The translations under genes were made by a program, and so were the position numbers. Shown piece by piece: positions 8,753 through 57,502 of a DNA stretch of 64,000 nt. Positions within the stretch are counted from its first letter, which is position 1, and every line of letters begins with the position of its first letter. The DNA is from Candidatus Nanoarchaeia archaeon (lineage in GTDB: Archaea; Nanobdellota; Nanobdellia; Woesearchaeales; UBA525): the NCBI GenBank assembly GCA_028279755.1, contig JANQNB010000018.1:134611-198610 (forward strand), given 5' to 3'. The notes under the pieces were generated by a model, which ran no database searches, had not been told where the DNA came from, and saw only the letters and a program-made list of their open reading frames with translations.

Positions 8753-8815
8753 TCGAGTGTAACGAGATGCACTCGCCGGTCCCGAAAGCTCTGCTTGAGG
8801 ATATCGGCGGGGGCA
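8753..8815 (+). repeat. tRNA 3' trailer element: a hairpin with a conserved loop followed by an 11-nt direct copy of the tRNA-Glu 3' end.
   Basis: The sequence is TCGAGTGTAACGAGATGCACTCGCCGGTCCCGAAAGCTCTGCTTGAGGATAT + CGGCGGGGGCA. The last 11 nt equal the tRNA 3' terminus. An oligo-T stretch CACTTTTTCT follows. Confidence 0.7.
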
Positions 8816-17471: not shown

Positions 17472-17540
17472 GAGGGGGTGCCGACAACCTCACGCGTTCC
17501 GCGTTCGGAGCCGCCACTCCCTCTCGGTGCTACGCACCTC
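17472..17540 (+). ncRNA. tRNA-Leu 5' leader element: a tRNA-like acceptor-stem mimic that begins with a 12-nt copy of the tRNA 5' end.
   Basis: GAGGGGGTGCCG at 17472 is identical to tRNA nt 1–12 at 17541. The leader ends ...CCACTCCCTCTCGG, which can pair with its own 5' GAGGGGG. A TATA TTTAAAAAG lies about 30 nt upstream at ~17436. Confidence 0.55.
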
Positions 17541-17624: not shown

Positions 17625-17678
17625 TACGAAGTAGAAGGGGGACGGTCCCGAACGCTAGTGAGGATATCGTCCCCCTCA
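17625..17678 (+). repeat. tRNA-Leu 3' trailer element: a hairpin with a conserved loop followed by an 11-nt direct copy of the tRNA 3' end.
   Basis: The sequence is TACGAAGTAGAAGGGGGACGGTCCCGAACGCTAGTGAGGATAT + CGTCCCCCTCA. GGGGGACG and CGTCCCCC form an 8-bp stem around a loop that carries GGTCCCGAA..GAGGATAT. Confidence 0.7.
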
Positions 17679-18395: not shown

Positions 18396-18450
18396 GCTGA
18401 GAATTCTTTTGCAAATGAATATAAAGCTTTGCCTGATCGCTCACAAGGAC

Positions 18451-18528
18451 GCAGCCGTGGTGCAGTAGTTCAGCGTCGCTACCCTGGGAAGCAGGGGTTT
18501 CGGCGCTTCGCACCTCAAGCCCCTTAAC
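18451..18528 (+). ncRNA. tRNA-Gly(CCC) 5' leader element: a tRNA-like RNA that begins with a 16-nt copy of the tRNA 5' end.
   Basis: GCAGCCGTGGTGCAGT at 18451 is identical to the tRNA 5' end at 18529. The core CAGCGTCGCTACCCTGGGAAGCAGGGGTTTC is identical to that of the element at 56798..56881, and both end TCAAGCCCCTTAA. A TATA AATATAAAG lies about 25 nt upstream. Confidence 0.6.
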
Positions 18529-18600
18529 GCAGCCGTGGTGCAGTGGTTAACATTCAAGGTTCCCAACCTTGCGACCCGGGTTCGACTCCCGGCGGCTGCA
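18529..18600 (+). tRNA. tRNA-Gly (anticodon CCC).
   Basis: The acceptor is GCAGCCG/CGGCTGC plus A. The anticodon arm is CAAGG-TTCCCAA-CCTTG and the T arm is CCGGG-TTCGACT-CCCGG. Confidence 0.85.
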
Positions 18601-18628
18601 TGTTCAACAAAAACGTTTATAAATCCTG

Positions 18629-20746: not shown

Positions 20747-22381
20747 ATGAAACGATTACTCTGGTGCCTCGCACTCCTGCTGTGCCCGCTTGTCGTGAGT
20801 GCGGCATTCGACAGCAGCTCGTGGCAATACATGCAAGAGATCAGCGTCGATGCTGACGAACCGGTGAAGCTCGTCCTCGATCCGAGCCTGCTGGCCAATG
20901 CGCAGCTCGACGGGCACGACCTCCGCGTGACAGAAGACGCGGTCGAGATCCCGTACAAGCTCTCGTTGGAAGGCAGTGCAGAACAGCAACGAACCATTGC
21001 GAGCATGACTGCCTCGTCGACGCGGCCGGACTTCCGTTCAGTCTCGTATGCGCCGGTCAATATGATCGATGGTGACGCATCCAATAGCGAGGGCGCGTAT
21101 TTCCAGATCGACGGCACAGTCGATACGGAAGTCTCGTGGATCGTCGCAGACCTCAGCTCTTCTGTGTTGAGTACAAAAGCCCGGTTCACGCTTGGGAGCG
21201 CGCGCTTTACGCATGTCCAAGTCCAAGGCAGCAACGACCTCGCGTCGTGGACCTTGCTGAAGCAGAAGACGAAAAGCGGCAGCCAGGTGAGCTACGCGCC
21301 GAGCAGCTTCCGCTACGTTCGCTTCACGCTCTGGCACAAGGGCGATCTCGTGATCAACGAGCTGACGATGTATGGCGAGAGCAGCGGCTGGCTCCTGTTC
21401 AACGCGCAGACCGGCAAGACCTACATGATCTATTACGGCAATGCGCAAGCAGGCGTGCCTGACTATGATCTTGAAGGATTGTATACTGTCGCGACCACGC
21501 CCTTCGTGTACACGCTCGGCGAGTGGGTGAACCCGTTGTTTGTCGGCGACGCTGATGAAGACGGCGTCGGCGTGGGCGACAATTGTCCGTCAGTCGCCAA
21601 TCCTTCGCAGCTTGACAGCGATAATGATGATCTTGGCGATGACTGCGACAATTGCCCTGGCGTGAGCAACCCTGGCCAAGGGGACCGTGATCACGACGGT
21701 GTGGGCGATGCGTGCGACAACTGCGCAGCGATGTACAATCCCAACCAGTATGACGACAACTTCAATGATATCGGCTGGGTATGCGACGACGAGGATCGCG
21801 ATGGCGTGGTGAACAGCGAAGACAATTGCGTGCCTGGCGCAAACCGTGATCAGCAGGACGTCGACCGTGACGGGGTTGGCGATGCGTGCGAGGACGACGA
21901 CGGCGACGGGGCTGCAAACTATATGGATAATTGCCCAGAGCTTGCGAACGCTGACCAGGCTGACAGCGAAACAGAGAATGGCAGGCTGGTTGGCGATGGT
22001 GTTGGCGATGCGTGCGACAATTGCGTGAACGTCAGGAATGCGGATCAGCGCGATACTGATGAAGATGGTGTCGGAGATGCCTGCGAGGACGACGACCAGG
22101 ACGACGTGCGCAATGATGCTGATAACTGCCGGCTTGTCGCGAATGCTGACCAGGTCGACTGGGACAGCGACGGCTTGGGCGATGCCTGCGACAATTGCCC
22201 GGAACATAAGAACCCGAATCAGCGCGATGTCGACAGCGACGGGCTTGGCGATGCCTGCGACGAGACTGAGAGCAGGCTGCTCGAGCAGAAGTGGATCGTC
22301 TGGAGCATCATCATCCTCGCGATACTCGTGCTCGGCTTCTTCGCCTACCGGATGTACCAGACGCCGGGAGGGAAGGAATGA
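20747..22381 (+). CDS. Secreted, membrane-anchored surface protein with an N-terminal discoidin-like domain and about 10 thrombospondin type-3 (Ca-binding) repeats.
   Basis: There is a signal peptide [19 protein letters not shown]. Repeats of the form [24 protein letters not shown] recur, and a C-terminal TM helix is present. The DNA shows matching internal repeats. Confidence 0.75.
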
Positions 22382-25129: not shown

Positions 25130-25176
25130 TGCACCCGCCGATGTCCTCAACCCTGTTTCGGGACCGGCGAGTGCTA
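25130..25176 (-). repeat. tRNA-Gly(UCC) 3' trailer element, same family as 8753..8815 and 17625..17678.
   Basis: In tRNA sense the sequence is TAGCACTCGCCGGTCCCGAAACAGGGTTGAGGACAT + CGGCGGGTGCA, a copy of the tRNA 3' end. GCACTCGCCGG is a near-reverse-complement of that 3' end. Confidence 0.65.
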
Positions 25177-25292
25177 TGCACCCGCCGGGACTCGAACCCG
25201 GGTAGCCGGCTGTCTTCGCCGCAGGCGGAGGCCCAGCGGGACCTCGTTCCGCGCGTGGAAGGCCGGAATCATAGCCACTAGATCACAGGTGC
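25177..25292 (-). tRNA. tRNA-Gly (anticodon UCC, tentative) with a ~44-nt intron at 37/38.
   Basis: In tRNA sense the acceptor is GCACCTG/CGGGTGC plus A. The anticodon stem is CCGGC/GCCGG with loop CU-UCC-A, then an intron, then A38. The T arm is CCGGG-TTCGAGT-CCCGG. A TATA TTTAAAAAG lies about 25 nt upstream. Confidence 0.65.
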
Positions 25293-25348
25293 GTTGCCTG
25301 GTGAGGACCGGACAAGCTTTTTAAACATACCGTTCTCTACACCTGTTC

Positions 25349-54789: not shown

Positions 54790-55344
54790 GTGGTGTTTGT
54801 GAACAAAACACTCATGTTAATAGTTCTGATAGCAGTAGGTGCCATGCTGGCAATGCCGGTGCATGGCGCAGCCTTTGCCAAGTACGACGGCATCGATGGC
54901 GAATCGAAAGACGCAGACCACGACAAGTGGATCGACGTGCTCAGCATCGACTGGGGCGTCCACAAGCCTGGCGGTGGCATGACCGGCCAGTCACGAAGGC
55001 GTGGCGCGGCTGTTGTTGAGGATCTTGTCCTGACGACAGAGTTTGAGAAATCGAGTCCGAAACTGCAGGAGAAATGCCTGAAAGGAGAAGTGATCCCGAA
55101 GCTGGAGATCGAGCTGACCTCAACCTATGGCGGCGCGCGCGCGACCTATCTCCGCTACGAGCTGAAGAACGTGATGATCACGAGCTATAAGATGACTGCG
55201 TCTGGCAACGACGAAGCAGGGCCGCCGACCGAGGAATACGGCGTCAACTTCGAAGAGATCAAGGTGACGTACACCGAATACGACGGATCCGGCTCGAGCC
55301 TGGGCAATGTCGAGATGGAGTACAAGGTCGAAGAGGGCGAGTAG
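54790..55344 (+). CDS. Hcp-family (type VI secretion tube protein-like) protein with an N-terminal signal peptide.
   Basis: After the signal sequence MVFVNKTLMLIVLIAVGAMLAMPVHGAAFA comes YDGIDGESKDADHDKWIDVLSIDWGV....FEKSSPKLQEKCLKGEV...YLRYELKNVMITSY...SGNDEAGPPTEEYGVNFEEIKVTY. This aligns with Hcp1 (GESKDK.H...IDVLS..WG; DKS.P.L...C; L.IT.K.V.ISS; E.V.LNF..V.V.Y). Confidence 0.75.
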   Translation: MVFVNKTLMLIVLIAVGAMLAMPVHGAAFAKYDGIDGESKDADHDKWIDVLSIDWGVHKPGGGMTGQSRRRGAAVVEDLVLTTEFEKSSPKLQEKCLKGEVIPKLEIELTSTYGGARATYLRYELKNVMITSYKMTASGNDEAGPPTEEYGVNFEEIKVTYTEYDGSGSSLGNVEMEYKVEEGE

Positions 55345-56193
55345 ATGCGTCTCGCTGTTGCCATTTTGATGTGCTTACTCATCATCCCCGTAGCAGCAGC
55401 GATGCCATACGTCCCTGACTATTCGATCTTCTATGAGAAGTCGGCTGGATCACCTTTGCTTACAGAAGGTGATTATTACAACCTTTTCGTTCTGTCTATA
55501 CATCTGCCTGATGGCGGCACAGGGCCAACACGGCGCCGAGGCGCTCCAGTGACTGGCGCTGAAGTGACGCGCGAGTTCGACAAGGCAAGCCCGAAACTGC
55601 AAGAAGCTATCCTGAAAGGCGACACCTTCGCAGCAGTCAGGCTCACCATGCCAGGCAGCAGCGATATGATCCTGCACAACGTGACCTTCACGAATTACTC
55701 GTTCCACGCATCTGGCAACGACGAGGCAGGACCGCCGACAGAGACTATCACCTTGGATTTCGAGGAGATAACCTGGGGTGAGAACGTCACCAATACGACC
55801 AACACCACGAACCTGACCGCGCCTTTCACTGTGACGATCGAGCCAGACTACGCGAAGATCAAGAAAGGCGAGAACGTGAAGTACCTTGTTGTGATCGACG
55901 CTGACGAAGGATTCAACGAGCTCGTGCAGCTCGAAATGGACCTTGACATCCCACTCGGCGACCAACACTATATTATCGACACCTACGGGCCGGACTATCC
56001 GGTGCGACTGAACTACACGCTGATCGTGCCCTCGAACCTGCCGTTCGGCTTTGTCGCGCACGGCACGATCATCGGCATCAGCGAACCCTATCAAGCGACA
56101 GACGACTTCATCGTCGTGGTCGAAGGTCCGGCCATGGGCGTGGGCAAGTTCCTGAACGGGATTGACAGATTCTTTGAAGGATTGTTTGGTTGA
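55345..56193 (+). CDS. Second Hcp-family domain protein with a signal peptide and a ~130-aa Asn/Thr-rich C-terminal extension.
   Basis: After MRLAVAILMCLLIIPVAAA comes TRRRGAPVTGAEVTREFDKASPKLQEAILKGDTFAAVRLTM...HNVTFTNYSFHASGNDEAGPPTETITLDFEEITW. The extension carries NVTNTTNTTNLT sequons. It starts directly after the stop of the first Hcp-like gene. Confidence 0.7.
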   Translation: MRLAVAILMCLLIIPVAAAMPYVPDYSIFYEKSAGSPLLTEGDYYNLFVLSIHLPDGGTGPTRRRGAPVTGAEVTREFDKASPKLQEAILKGDTFAAVRLTMPGSSDMILHNVTFTNYSFHASGNDEAGPPTETITLDFEEITWGENVTNTTNTTNLTAPFTVTIEPDYAKIKKGENVKYLVVIDADEGFNELVQLEMDLDIPLGDQHYIIDTYGPDYPVRLNYTLIVPSNLPFGFVAHGTIIGISEPYQATDDFIVVVEGPAMGVGKFLNGIDRFFEGLFG

Positions 56194-56198
56194 TAAGA

Positions 56199-56600
56199 AT
56201 GTACACTGCTTCTGAACGGCGACGCCTGTACTTTGACGAGGCGACGAATCGCCGATTGCTGCTGCAGCTTGGACTCGAGCAGCTCACCACACCTGACGGC
56301 GCAAGCGACTCCCCGCTCATCGGCGTGCTCGAATGGTCATTCGCACCGCATTACAACCACCTCGAGAAGCCGCCCAACATCGTCGTTCTCGGTCCACCGG
56401 TCAGAATGAGCCTTCAGCAACCAAAAGTCCGCCTGCAGCACGACGGGGCTCGCTGGTACTACCATTTGCCACCGTTTGGTTTGCCGCTCTACGTTCGCCG
56501 CGGGAAACCAAGGCCTCAACCCTATTTCCTTCGCGCCATCAATCTCTTTCTCGCTTCAGAAGCACAGCGACAGAGGTATTTTCCTGAAACTCAGACGTAA
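56199..56600 (+). CDS. Hypothetical protein immediately downstream of, and overlapping, the Hcp-like pair.
   Basis: ORF 56190..56600 has a TTG start overlapping the upstream stop. The ATG at 56199 is chosen instead. Confidence 0.4.
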   Translation: MYTASERRRLYFDEATNRRLLLQLGLEQLTTPDGASDSPLIGVLEWSFAPHYNHLEKPPNIVVLGPPVRMSLQQPKVRLQHDGARWYYHLPPFGLPLYVRRGKPRPQPYFLRAINLFLASEAQRQRYFPETQT

Positions 56601-56669
56601 TGGGGCTACGAGGATAACTCGAGCGGAGCTCTCGTAACCTCTCATCCCCAGTTCTCACTATGTTCGAAC
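56601..56669 (-). repeat. tRNA-Pro 3' trailer element ending in a 14-nt direct copy of the tRNA 3' end.
   Basis: Plus-strand TGGGGCTACGAGGA at 56601..56614 repeats 56670..56683. In tRNA sense the trailer is GTTCGAAC...GAGAGCTCCGCTCGAGTTAT + CCTCGTAGCCCCA. Confidence 0.6.
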
Positions 56670-56787
56670 TGGGGCTACGAGGATTTGAACCCCGGTTGCC
56701 AGGTGTTTTGATCTCGGATCAAAACCCGCGAGGACTTTGTCCGAGCATGCCCAAACCTGGAGTGATACCAAGCTACACTATAGCCCC
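56670..56787 (-). tRNA. tRNA-Pro (anticodon UGG) with a ~45-nt intron at 37/38.
   Basis: In tRNA sense the acceptor is GGGGCTA/TAGCCCC plus A. The anticodon stem is CCAGG/CCTGG with loop UU-UGG-G then an intron. The T arm is CGGGG-TTCAAAT-CCTCG. Confidence 0.7.
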
Positions 56788-56797
56788 GGTGAATCTG

Positions 56798-56881
56798 TTT
56801 AAGGGGCTTGACTGAGCGTCAGCGAAGGAAACCCCTGCTTCCCAGGGTAGCGACGCTGATACCGAGCTACACTATAGCCCC
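56798..56881 (-). ncRNA. tRNA-Pro 5' leader element: a promoter-proximal tRNA-like RNA that begins with a 17-nt copy of the tRNA-Pro 5' end.
   Basis: In tRNA sense it reads GGGGCTATAGTGTAGCT (= tRNA-Pro nt 1–17) CGGTATCAGCGTCGCTACCCTGGGAAGCAGGGGTTTCCTTCGCTGACGCTCAGTCAAGCCCCTTAAA. Its 5' GGGGCT and 3' AGCCCC can pair like an acceptor stem. A TATA CTATATATAGG lies about 33 nt upstream. The 31-nt core is identical to that of 18451..18528. Confidence 0.6.
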
Positions 56882-56929
56882 TGTATAAGCTCTAGCACTT
56901 CAGGCTCGCCCAGCCCTATATATAGATTT

Positions 56930-57322
56930 CTACGAGAATGCTTGTTGCAGCAAGTCACCAAGCTGTTCGCGATTACGGACAGCATCTATGTATCGATCAT
57001 CTGGCTGGACTGTCTGTGGTGTCAAAGGGCCGCCTATCATTATCGTCTCGACCATAACAATGGGCTTGCCTTCTCTCCGCAACGTCTTGTAAAGTATTCC
57101 ATATCTATCCTGAACCAGATTTGAGGTGACAAGAACCACTCCCCGAGCCCCCCGAGCATACGAAGAGACTGCAGTGAAATCGCCGCAATGTTTATCCAGC
57201 TCAAAGCTCTCAACTGCGTGTCCAGCCGAGACAAGATGATTCCTTACCCTGCCCAGCATTTTATAGCTCGGGTCGTTCGTGTACATATCTGTCGCGCAAA
57301 GAATGTGTCCTGCATCAGCCAT
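56930..57322 (-). CDS. Hypothetical Rossmann-like protein.
   Basis: 130 aa with no firm family assignment. Confidence 0.4.
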   Translation of the reverse strand: MADAGHILCATDMYTNDPSYKMLGRVRNHLVSAGHAVESFELDKHCGDFTAVSSYARGARGVVLVTSNLVQDRYGILYKTLRREGKPIVMVETIMIGGPLTPQTVQPDDRYIDAVRNREQLGDLLQQAFS

Positions 57323-57502
57323 TACTCATCCCCCCGTGGCAACGGGGGGTGTCGCATGAATTCTTAAGCGTTTCGACAGGAAGCTTTTTAAACGAATCAG
57401 GGTTCGCAAAGCGTACCATTTTACCTGGCAGCCAGAGCTGCGGTCCGCGTATCTAAGCCAAGGGGGCTGGACGACCCCGTCATGTTCATAGGTGATACTC
57501 AC

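What the first reader, a model, noticed from the sequence alone, without database searches (positions are those of the whole stretch)
18451..18528. Promoter-proximal tRNA-like leader elements sharing a 31-nt identical core precede tRNA-Gly(CCC) and tRNA-Pro
Element A (18451..18528, plus strand) and element B (56798..56881, minus strand) each start about 25–33 nt after a TATA box, and each begins with a 16–17-nt exact copy of the 5' end of the tRNA that follows. Both contain the identical core CAGCGTCGCTACCCTGGGAAGCAGGGGTTTC, a stem CCCTG-GGAAG-CAGGG, and both end TCAAGCCCCTTAA a few nt before the mature tRNA 5' end. Element B can close an acceptor-like stem (GGGGCT/AGCCCC). The tRNA-Leu leader (17472..17540) has the same architecture but only weak sequence similarity (CGCACCTC). 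These look like co-transcribed tRNA-like leader RNAs, or processing decoys for RNase P, rather than random spacers. I do not recognise them as a described element class.
Basis: seen in the sequence. Interest (0 to 1): 0.8.

Follow-up and report, generated by a model that had tools for sequence, protein, structure and literature searches.

The report
Hairpin cassettes inserted in archaeal tRNA genes
The two "leaders" are real copies of a short hairpin-forming DNA cassette that has inserted into tRNA genes of a group of tiny archaea and duplicated the start of each tRNA, so they look like a small mobile element related to tRNA introns rather than a tRNA-like decoy.

Summary
The 31-nt core is identical at 18471-18501 (+) and 56828-56858 (-), and each copy follows a copy of the first 16-24 nt of the downstream tRNA (Gly-CCC, Pro-UGG).

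The tRNA-like or decoy reading is not supported. Infernal and ARAGORN in relaxed mode see no tRNA or known RNA family in the leaders.

The elements belong to a 55-65-nt cassette family. Each cassette has hairpin CCCUG/CAGGG, a covarying stem-loop AGGGGUUU-[variable hairpin]-AAGCCCCU, and an A-rich tail. I found it in other Woesearchaeota contigs, always on the tRNA strand, in these settings:
- a 5' leader, single or in 2-3 tandem units
- a spacer between tRNAs
- inside a bulge-helix-bulge (BHB) intron of tRNA-Glu

Orthologous tRNA-Gly and tRNA-Pro genes in relatives are leaderless with the same promoter, so the window carries lineage-specific insertions that displaced a dead 5' fragment. Analogous modules that duplicate the tRNA 3' end fill the trailers of four of the five tRNAs in the window.

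Best explanation: non-coding mini-cassettes that insert at tRNA termini by att-type recombination, are co-transcribed, and are removed by RNase P. A functional leader RNA remains a live rival.

The parts
18420..18426 (+). TATA box of the tRNA-Gly(CCC) promoter, 24 nt upstream of the leader copy
   Evidence: The same AAATGAATATAAAGCTTT lies 27 nt upstream of a leaderless tRNA-Gly(CCC) in relative L033.
18451..18472 (+). Displaced 5' fragment of tRNA-Gly(CCC): positions 1-16 exact, 20 of 22 overall, G18 mutated to A
   Evidence: It sits where the tRNA itself starts in L033.
18471..18501 (+). 31-nt conserved block, including hairpin HP1 (CCCTG 18482-18486 / CAGGG 18492-18496)
18493..18524 (+). 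Long stem-loop: AGGGGTTT (18493-18500), variable hairpin hp2 (18502-18514), AAGCCCCT (18517-18524)
   Evidence: Covariation counts. Model R1 scores 69.7 bits.
18529..18600 (+). tRNA-Gly(CCC), the functional copy
56917..56924 (-). TATA box of the tRNA-Pro promoter
   Evidence: Orthologous promoters AAACCTATATATA are seen in L035 and L036.
56857..56881 (-). Displaced 5' fragment of tRNA-Pro(UGG), 24 of 25 identical to the tRNA
56828..56858 (-). 31-nt conserved block, with HP1 at 56833-56847
56788..56836 (-). Long stem-loop (AGGGGTTT 56829-56836, hp2 56812-56827, AAGCCCCT 56802-56809) plus A-rich tail TAAACAGATTCACC (56788-56801)
   Evidence: 57.9 bits.
56670..56787 (-). tRNA-Pro(UGG) with a 45-nt BHB intron (56705-56749)
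56601..56669 (-). 3' trailer module of tRNA-Pro: a hairpin, an arm complementary to the tRNA 3' end, a loop, and a copy of tRNA positions 59-73 (56601-56615)
17472..17540 (+). tRNA-Leu leader: a 12-nt 5' copy, a loop, an imperfect complement, and small hairpin GGTGC/GCACC shared with element A
   Evidence: A diverged ortholog is present in L032 and absent in L030.
17625..17678 (+). tRNA-Leu trailer module ending in an 11-nt copy of the tRNA 3' end (17668-17678)
8753..8815 (+). tRNA-Glu(CUC) trailer module ending in an 11-nt 3' copy (8805-8815)
25130..25176 (-). Trailer module of tRNA-Gly(UCC), homologous to the Glu trailer, ending in an 11-nt 3' copy (25130-25140)
25177..25292 (-). tRNA-Gly(UCC) with a 45-nt intron, leaderless, missed by ARAGORN and by the Rfam gathering scan

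Best explanation
Elements A and B are two copies of a non-coding cassette family of about 55-65 nt. Each cassette has hairpin HP1, a 12-13-bp stem-loop AGGGGUUU-C-[variable hairpin]-UC-AAGCCCCU, and an A-rich tail.

Shown:
- The cassette has inserted into the 5' part of otherwise leaderless tRNA genes in a clade of Woesearchaeota (DPANN archaea).
- Each insertion leaves the ancestral promoter and the first 16-24 nt of the tRNA (acceptor 5' strand plus D arm) upstream as a dead fragment. A complete tRNA follows the cassette.
- The same cassette also sits in a spacer between tRNAs and in a BHB intron, which are likewise discarded parts of pre-tRNAs.
- Analogous modules that duplicate tRNA positions 60/63-73 fill the 3' trailers.

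Inferred:
- This layout is the signature of att-type site-specific recombination at a tRNA terminus, as known for pNOB8-type integrative elements. Here the insert is reduced to a mini-cassette that would have to be moved in trans.
- Arrays of 2-3 units grow by repeated recombination or unequal crossing-over.
- The cassette is transcribed from the old promoter as the pre-tRNA 5' leader and cut off by RNase P.
- It persists as a selfish or near-neutral passenger. The invariant block is kept because the copies are young, or because the block is needed for propagation.
For: - Identity and linkage. Exact 31-mers occur only at the two tRNA leaders in 64 kb.
- Other copies. The same cassette lies upstream of Val(GAC), Val(UAC), Lys(CUU), Ala(GGC) and Glu(UUC) genes in a Woesearchaeota MAG and in metagenome contigs.
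- Strand and location. Every model R1 hit with E<1e-5 is adjacent to or inside a tRNA and on the tRNA strand.
- Insertion polarity. L033 has the same promoter with a leaderless tRNA-Gly(CCC). L035 and L036 have leaderless tRNA-Pro(UGG) genes. The window's first copy therefore sits at the ancestral +1.
- Gain and decay. L030 tRNA-Glu carries a decayed unit: 11 of 16 nt in the 5' copy, 28 of 32 nt in the block, AAGCCCC lost. The window's tRNA-Glu has no leader.
- Link to introns. The 65-nt strict-BHB intron of L030 tRNA-Glu contains the cassette. It is 26 of 28 identical to the L009 copy, with score 46 against a shuffle maximum of 23.
- Tandem units occur in L005, L007 and L008.
[quoted passage not shown] The Glu and Gly(UCC) trailers share an arm that fits Gly(UCC) perfectly but Glu only imperfectly, so the module has moved between tRNAs. 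The same module family sits behind tRNA-Pro in L035.
- Precedent. In Caldiarchaeum a 5' tRNA fragment, a recombinase-bearing insert, a complete tRNA and an intron gained at position 24/25 were explained by integration at a 5'-terminal att site (PMC3293823). Partial tRNA copies are a general mark of integration (PMC9897764).
Against: - No integrase, transposase or reverse transcriptase was found by Pfam among 50 ORFs of the window, and none in the cassette.
- No kb-sized parent element carrying the cassette was found, and there were no real hits in viral contigs.
- The duplicated length varies from 15 to 24 nt.
- One element family would need a matching 5' tRNA segment for each of at least 6 different host tRNAs. 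That is awkward for classical att recombination.
- The stem-loop covaries. Within arrays the core and tail are identical (0 of 137 positions differ) while the 5' copies differ at 4 of 40 (Fisher p=0.002). That pattern suggests purifying selection on the RNA or DNA structure.
- Removal by RNase P is inferred, not shown.
Confidence: 0.45

Rival explanations
1. The cassette is a functional RNA. One form is a cis-acting leader that stabilises the pre-tRNA or guides its processing. The 7+5-bp stem-loop has the dimensions of an acceptor/T-arm minihelix and could attract RNase P, tRNase Z or the CCA-adding enzyme. The other form is a small stable RNA that uses tRNA processing for its release from leaders, spacers and introns.
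For: - A 24-31-nt block is invariant across different genomes while neighbouring parts vary.
- All five hp2 pairs and two lower-stem pairs show compensatory changes. 93% of cells are paired and 0 of 500 shuffles reach this.
- HP1 is replaced by other hairpins in L005b and in the L030 intron.
- Core and tail are identical within arrays while the 5' copies drift.
- The cassette is always on the transcribed strand.
Against: - Distribution is patchy. Orthologous tRNA-Gly and tRNA-Pro genes lack the cassette.
- The L030 copy is decayed.
- There is no Rfam family and no tRNA-likeness.
- No C/D or H/ACA boxes were seen on inspection.
- The exact 20-mer of the core occurs only once, on either strand, in the L004 MAG.
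- The minihelix analogy is geometric only.
Confidence: 0.3
2. The units are plain decayed tRNA pseudogenes. They would have arisen by local tandem duplication of each tRNA gene, with internal deletion of the upstream copy and no mobility.
For: - The Leu leader looks like an internally deleted copy of tRNA-Leu, with a 5' strand, the T-arm-like GCGTTCGGAGCC, and a 3'-like strand CCACTCCCTC.
- L009 shows three tandem tRNA-Ala genes with the cassette as a spacer. A deletion between the short TCAG repeats there would yield the L006-type junction.
Against: - The same core follows the 5' fragments of Gly, Pro, Val and Lys tRNAs. It cannot derive independently from each of them.
- The deletion end-points would have to recur at the D-arm end and at CAGCG in every locus.
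- The cassette also occurs in an intron.
Confidence: 0.12
3. The first copy is a real exon. Transcription starts at its G1, as in leaderless genes. The segment from the cassette to the second copy would then be removed as a D-arm intron by the splicing endonuclease, giving a mature 5' end without RNase P.
For: - The TATA box lies 24-26 nt upstream of the first copy in A, Leu and L004.
- Splicing anywhere within the repeat would give the correct tRNA.
- The MFE folds pair the first copy with the 3' acceptor strand.
- An intron at 24/25 gained from a mobile element is documented.
Against: - No BHB is found. For every splice position in five units the 4-bp central helix, where present, has flanking helices of 0-1 bp. 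The exceptions give a wrong product.
- The same script finds the true Pro, Glu and L030 introns.
- The first copy of A has G18 mutated. Upstream copies in arrays and in L030 are decaying.
Confidence: 0.04
4. The units are 5' halves of split tRNAs. Each would be trans-spliced to a 3' fragment encoded elsewhere, through pairing of the cassette with a complementary leader.
For: The layout of promoter, tRNA 5' fragment and structured extension resembles the 5'-half genes of split tRNAs.
Against: - No reverse-complement copy of the core is present in the window at up to 3 mismatches.
- The exact 20-mer occurs only once, on either strand, in the L004 MAG.
- A complete tRNA follows each unit.
Confidence: 0.03

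Closest known systems
Integration of pNOB8-type or SSV-type elements at tRNA termini; the Caldiarchaeum tRNA-Thr locus (Sugahara et al. 2012, PMC3293823)
   Same: - A direct repeat of a tRNA terminal segment flanks the insert.
- A partial 5' copy sits next to the host promoter and a complete tRNA lies downstream.
- The junction lies near position 24/25.
- There is a link to intron gain.
- Related genomes differ in presence or absence.
   Different: - The insert is 55-65 nt rather than 1.8-20 kb.
- It encodes no recombinase.
- It is shared by at least 6 different host tRNAs.
- It can be tandemly repeated.
- It has a conserved, covarying hairpin.
Transposable BHB introns of archaeal tRNAs (intron transposition in Thermoproteales, as reviewed in PMC4090602 and PMC4033280; recalled from memory, these papers were listed but not read)
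   Same: - Similar short sequences occur in different tRNA genes and positions within a lineage.
- One family member here is the interior of a canonical BHB intron.
   Different: - Most copies lie outside the mature tRNA sequence, in leaders or spacers.
- They have no BHB at their borders.
- They come with a duplication of the tRNA 5' end.
Leaderless tRNA transcription in Nanoarchaeum equitans (own knowledge; mentioned in PMC10100707, listed)
   Same: TATA boxes sit 23-27 nt upstream of tRNA position +1 in the cassette-free genes of this clade.
   Different: - The transcription start site is not mapped here.
- Closely spaced tRNAs and the cassette leaders imply that a 5' processing activity, presumably RNase P, is still needed.
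Small palindromic repeat elements co-transcribed with genes (REP/BIME and Correia-type MITEs; own knowledge)
   Same: They are short, non-coding, hairpin-forming, multi-copy and embedded in transcripts.
   Different: - The cassettes are strictly linked to tRNAs and have one orientation.
- They have no terminal inverted repeats.
- The flanking repeat is a 15-24-nt piece of the tRNA rather than a fixed short target duplication.

Membership tests
tRNA / tRNA-like RNA (Rfam RF00005, clan CL00001) | Cloverleaf with D, anticodon and T arms that a covariance model can score | tested here: not met
   cmscan at E<=10 on 18400-18620 and 56560-56960 reports only the true tRNAs. ARAGORN at lowered threshold finds nothing in unit A, unit B or the Leu leader.
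Archaeal BHB intron | Bulge-helix-bulge motif (3-nt bulges around a 4-bp helix, with flanking helices) at both splice sites | tested here: not met
   Copy-to-copy splicing has flanking helices of 0-1 bp in all five units. Positive controls were found. A family member does lie inside a true BHB intron in L030.
Archaeal BHB intron | The element interrupts the mature tRNA sequence | tested here: inconclusive
   Formally the cassette plus the second copy interrupts the first copy at about position 16-24. A complete tRNA nevertheless follows, so removal as a leader suffices.
Integrative element at a tRNA att site | One complete and one partial tRNA copy as direct repeats flanking the insert | tested here: met
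   5' repeats are 16-24 nt. 3' repeats in trailers are 11-15 nt.
Integrative element at a tRNA att site | Integrase or recombinase encoded in or next to the insert | tested here: not met
   The cassette has no ORF. Pfam finds no integrase or transposase in 50 window ORFs. The rest of the genome was not available.
Integrative element at a tRNA att site | Empty site in related genomes | tested here: met
   Leaderless orthologs of tRNA-Gly(CCC) (L033) and tRNA-Pro(UGG) (L035 and L036).
Known self-cleaving ribozymes (hammerhead, twister, pistol, hatchet, HDV-like) | Match to the Rfam covariance models | tested here: not met
   No such hit at gathering score in the window, nor at E<=10 around A and B. 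No CUGANGA core was seen on inspection.
Box C/D or H/ACA guide sRNA | C (RUGAUGA) and D (CUGA) boxes, or a guide pocket plus K-turn plus ACA box | tested here: not met
   No boxes in the cassette on inspection and no Rfam hit. ACA in the tail is present in only about 7 of 10 copies.
Split-tRNA 5' half gene | A partner 3' fragment preceded by a sequence complementary to the extension | tested here: not met
   No antisense core in the window. Only a single exact 20-mer is present on either strand in the L004 MAG. Whole source genome not tested.
MITE / IS-type transposon | Terminal inverted repeats and a target duplication of fixed length | tested here: not met
   No TIRs. The repeat length varies from 15 to 24 nt and always starts at tRNA +1.
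Leaderless tRNA genes | Transcription start at tRNA +1 | not testable with these tools
   Only the spacing can be read: TATA lies 23-27 nt upstream of +1.

The most novel reading that the evidence does not exclude
The cassettes, together with the trailer modules, would be a so far undescribed class of structure-specific mobile element. The conserved lower stem with bulged bases and the variable upper stem would act as a folded recombination site, comparable in logic to integron attC sites. It would be recognised by a host-encoded or element-encoded enzyme that inserts the cassette at tRNA termini and duplicates them. The same element could enter tRNA bodies as BHB introns, which would give a concrete mechanism for archaeal tRNA intron mobility. 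Alternatively, the stem-loop is an acceptor/T-arm minihelix mimic that makes the insert self-processing by RNase P and tRNase Z.
Probability: 0.15. Interest if true: 0.85.

Novelty: new variant of a known kind. Interest (0 to 1): 0.6.

Why it matters
How archaeal tRNA genes acquire introns, split or accumulate fragments is a long-standing open question. The only worked example rests on one locus in Caldiarchaeum.

Here one short, recognisable cassette is caught in four states within one clade:
- a 5' leader with a duplication of the tRNA 5' end
- tandem arrays
- a spacer between tRNAs
- a BHB intron

Empty orthologous sites are also available. That makes the insertion mechanism testable with population metagenomics and simple in vitro assays.

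There are practical consequences too:
- The partial tRNA copies and long introns make standard tRNA finders miss or misplace genes. One of the five tRNAs in this window was missed by both tools.
- The repeats break assemblies. Contigs L001, L006 and L007 end inside the cassette.

Tried and rejected
- Chance: rejected.
- tRNA-like fold: Infernal and ARAGORN are negative.
- Known ribozyme or sRNA families: no Rfam hit. Hand comparison with twister, pistol and HDV motifs gave only short resemblances.
- Splicing of copy 1 to the tRNA body: no BHB. A weak BHB inside the L005 and L008 units (two G-U pairs, 3-bp flanks) is not conserved in A, B or L004.
- Viral or plasmid origin: three IMG/VR scans gave only unrelated terminator-like matches.
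- Local recombinase: none found in 50 window ORFs.
- Kink-turn in the trailer module: the C-GA-[hairpin]-GA-G motif has tandem G-A pairs but lacks the 3-nt bulge.
- Tail as an internal promoter: CCCCTAAAACA resembles the clade's TTTAAAAACAG TATA region. It lies only 10-14 nt from +1 and has a GC-rich segment where a BRE should be.
- Weak similarity of other introns (L007 Lys, window Gly-UCC) to hp2: exact runs of 10-11 nt, p about 0.003-0.05. Too weak to use.
- Model R1 hits near E=0.01: one lies in a coding region (L007 4896-4933) and is false. The L033 Leu-trailer hit (E=0.027) is therefore only tentative.
- The source contig could not be retrieved beyond the window. One look-up returned no DNA.

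Full report
**1. Observation**

The sequence is as described.
- Element A (18451-18528, +) begins 24 nt after TATAAAG. It starts with the first 16 nt of the tRNA-Gly(CCC) that follows at 18529-18600, and 20 of the first 22 nt match.
- Element B (56881-56788, -) begins about 35 nt after TATATATA. It starts with 17 exact nt (24 of 25) of the tRNA at 56787-56670.
- That tRNA is tRNA-Pro(UGG) with a 45-nt intron.
- The 31-mer core occurs exactly twice and nowhere else at up to 3 mismatches. Zero hits are expected by chance.
- TCAAGCCCCTTAA is exact in both elements.
- The Leu leader (17472-17540) shares TCGGYGCTWCGCACCTC with A.

**2. Not tRNA-like, and no known RNA family**

- cmscan at E<=10 on the two loci reports only the real tRNAs.
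- The gathering scan of the window reports four tRNAs and nothing else.
- ARAGORN at lowered threshold finds nothing in units A and B or in the Leu leader.
- The single-sequence folds of A and B are not unusually stable (z -0.6 and -1.8).

**3. A family in Woesearchaeota**

A scan of species-representative genomes found the core once in an archaeon, upstream of tRNA-Val(GAC) in a Candidatus Woesearchaeota MAG (L004). There it follows a 15-nt copy of that tRNA's 5' end, 25 nt after a TATA box.

A metagenome scan gave five more contigs:
- Two tandem units lie before tRNA-Val(UAC) in L005, with a more decayed third remnant upstream.
- Two tandem units lie before an intron-containing tRNA-Val(GAC) in L008.
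- At least two units lie before tRNA-Lys(CUU) in L006/L007. Both contigs break inside the repeat.
- One copy in L009 is the spacer between a complete tRNA-Ala(CGC) and a tRNA-Ala(GGC).
- A diverged copy in L005 (12660-12723) lies between a tRNA and tRNA-Glu(UUC). It has a different HP1 sequence, and GGGTTTCG and CAAGCCCCT are kept.

Neighbouring proteins find Woesearchaeota homologs. The window encodes archaeal housekeeping genes such as SRP54, S3Ae and SMC.

**4. Structure**

I aligned eight distinct copies (A2).
- Support is strongest for a long stem-loop: AGGGGUUU, one C, a variable 3-5-bp hairpin (hp2), UC, then AAGCCCCU.
- 93% of cells are paired.
- Seven pairs show changes on both sides: all five hp2 pairs and two lower-stem pairs.
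- 0 of 500 shuffles and no slid register come close.
- HP1 (CCCUG/CAGGG) is invariant in the main family. It is replaced by other hairpins in L005b and in the L030 intron.
- HP1 and the lower stem compete for the same G run, so alternative folds are possible.

The sample is small, and hp2 was aligned by MAFFT rather than by structure.

A covariance model of this alignment (R1) recovers all copies, plus one decayed copy that was not in the training set (L030 5677-5712, E 2e-6). All hits below 1e-5 are linked to tRNAs and lie on the tRNA strand. Hits near E=0.01 include a false one in a coding region.

**5. The cassette is an insertion**

The EEP-family gene between tRNA-Leu and tRNA-Gly, and the S3Ae gene next to tRNA-Pro, led to orthologous loci.
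- L033 has the same promoter, AAATGAATATAAAGCTTT. A leaderless tRNA-Gly(CCC) starts 27 nt after the TATA box.
- L036 and L035 have leaderless, intron-less tRNA-Pro(UGG) genes behind the orthologous AAACCTATATATA promoter.

The first, partial copy in the window therefore occupies the ancestral tRNA start. The cassette and a second copy of the 5' end were added downstream of it.

L030 shows the other end of the life cycle.
- Its tRNA-Glu has a decayed unit, with 11 of 16 nt in the 5' copy, 28 of 32 nt in the block, and the 3' motif lost.
- The window's tRNA-Glu is leaderless.
- The Leu leader has a diverged ortholog in L032 and none in L030.

**6. Link to introns**

The canonical-position intron of L030 tRNA-Glu(CUC) is 65 nt long and has a strict BHB with 7-bp and 4-bp flanking helices. 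The spliced product is read as tRNA-Glu by ARAGORN.

This intron carries the cassette's stem-loop. It is 26 of 28 identical to the L009 copy, with a score of 46 against a maximum of 23 in 300 shuffles.

The cassette therefore occupies three kinds of discarded pre-tRNA segment: leader, spacer and intron.

**7. A parallel phenomenon at the 3' end**

Four of the five tRNAs in the window are followed by a module of the same logic: Glu, Leu, Pro, and a Gly(UCC) that both tRNA finders missed. Each module is built as follows:
- a small hairpin
- an arm complementary to the tRNA 3' end
- a loop, GUCCCGAA-[hairpin]-UGAGGAYAU in three of the four
- an exact copy of tRNA positions 63-73 (59-73 for Pro)
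- the T-rich terminator after that copy

The Glu and Gly(UCC) modules are homologous. Their shared arm fits Gly(UCC) perfectly and Glu only with mismatches, yet each distal repeat is the host's own sequence. The module has therefore moved between tRNAs.

The same loop family follows tRNA-Pro in L035. Trailers of the same architecture follow tRNA-Ser in L009, tRNA-Glu in L005 and tRNA-Gly(CCC) in L033.

The Leu leader mirrors this layout: copy, loop, complement, small hairpin, then the tRNA.

**8. Mechanisms tested**

Splicing of the first copy to the tRNA body is excluded as far as sequence can tell. No splice position in five units has a BHB with flanking helices, while the same script finds the true introns.

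A split-tRNA reading lacks the required antisense partner.

No recombinase, transposase or reverse transcriptase is encoded among 50 window ORFs, and there are no viral-contig relatives.

**9. Interpretation**

Several features together are the pattern produced by site-specific integration at tRNA termini (PMC9897764):
- a partial copy next to the promoter
- a complete copy downstream
- empty sites in relatives
- tandem accretion
- a mirror-image phenomenon at the 3' end

They closely parallel the Caldiarchaeum tRNA-Thr case. There a 5' fragment, a recombinase-bearing insert and an intron gained at position 24/25 were tied to integration at a 5'-terminal att site (PMC3293823).

I therefore read the elements as non-coding mini-cassettes moved in trans, co-transcribed as leader and removed by RNase P. 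RNase P is inferred from two observations. Tightly spaced tRNAs in L005 and L009 need 5' processing anyway. A review reports RNase P proteins in all archaeal genomes examined (PMC6380272).

Weak points of this reading:
- No enzyme or parent element was found.
- The repeat length varies.
- One family would need a matched att segment for each host tRNA.

Some findings keep a functional-RNA reading alive:
- the covarying stem-loop
- the invariant block
- the contrast within arrays between drifting 5' copies (4 of 40 positions differ) and identical cores (0 of 137, p=0.002)

**10. Verdict**

This is a real, non-random and so far undescribed cassette family. It is best filed as a new variant of tRNA-gene disruption by mobile, intron-related elements.

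Noticed in passing
window 25177-25292 (-): tRNA-Gly(UCC) with a 45-nt canonical intron. It is leaderless, with TATA at 25317-25325. ARAGORN and the Rfam gathering scan both missed it, and it was found only through similarity of its trailer. The spliced sequence is called tRNA-Gly(tcc).
   Followed up: yes
window 8753-8815 (+), 17625-17678 (+), 25130-25176 (-), 56601-56669 (-): 3' trailer modules behind four of the five tRNAs. Each is a hairpin whose 3' strand is an exact 11-15-nt copy of the tRNA 3' end. Three share the loop GUCCCGAA-[hairpin]-UGAGGAYAU with tandem G-A pairs. The T-rich terminator follows the distal copy.
   Followed up: partly
window 57370-57480 (+); L035 2560-2760, L036 1090-1295, L034 3800-4010: A conserved non-coding stretch lies between a TATA box (AAGCTTTAAAAA) and the S3Ae start codon in four genomes: ACCATTTTACC ... 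GGGGCTGGACGACCCCG. It may be a ribosomal-protein mRNA leader or a small RNA. It overlaps the mechanical ORF 56930-57322 only marginally.
   Followed up: partly
window 54790-56193 (+): Two adjacent ORFs match the type VI secretion Hcp family (PF05638, E 2e-33 and 2e-8) in what is otherwise a DPANN archaeal context. They lie between an HD-domain gene and tRNA-Pro and are absent from the syntenic loci L035 and L036.
   Followed up: no
L001 (whole), L006 3' end, L007 3' end in locus coordinates: Public contigs end inside the cassette. The repeats break short-read assemblies, so copy numbers in arrays are lower bounds.
   Followed up: no
L030 161-292 (-), 2590-2700 (-), 5727-5866 (+): In the relative L030, the orthologs of tRNA-Gly(CCC), tRNA-Leu and tRNA-Glu all carry long introns that the window's genes lack or have in shorter form. 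Intron content therefore turns over as fast as the leaders do. The Leu and Glu genes were missed by both tRNA finders, and the Gly(CCC) gene was missed by ARAGORN only.
   Followed up: partly
L033 1356-1397 (-): The trailer of tRNA-Leu contains GGGGGTCTCGCGCTACGCGCTCGAGCCCCC. This closely resembles the leader cassette's stem-loop in L006 (R1 E=0.027, tentative), so the same hairpin may also occur in 3' trailers.
   Followed up: partly
window 20747-22381 (+): A 544-aa ORF is rich in DxDxDG and thrombospondin-type-3-like repeats, with a signal sequence and a C-terminal membrane anchor. Seen by eye only; Pfam was not run on it.
   Followed up: no
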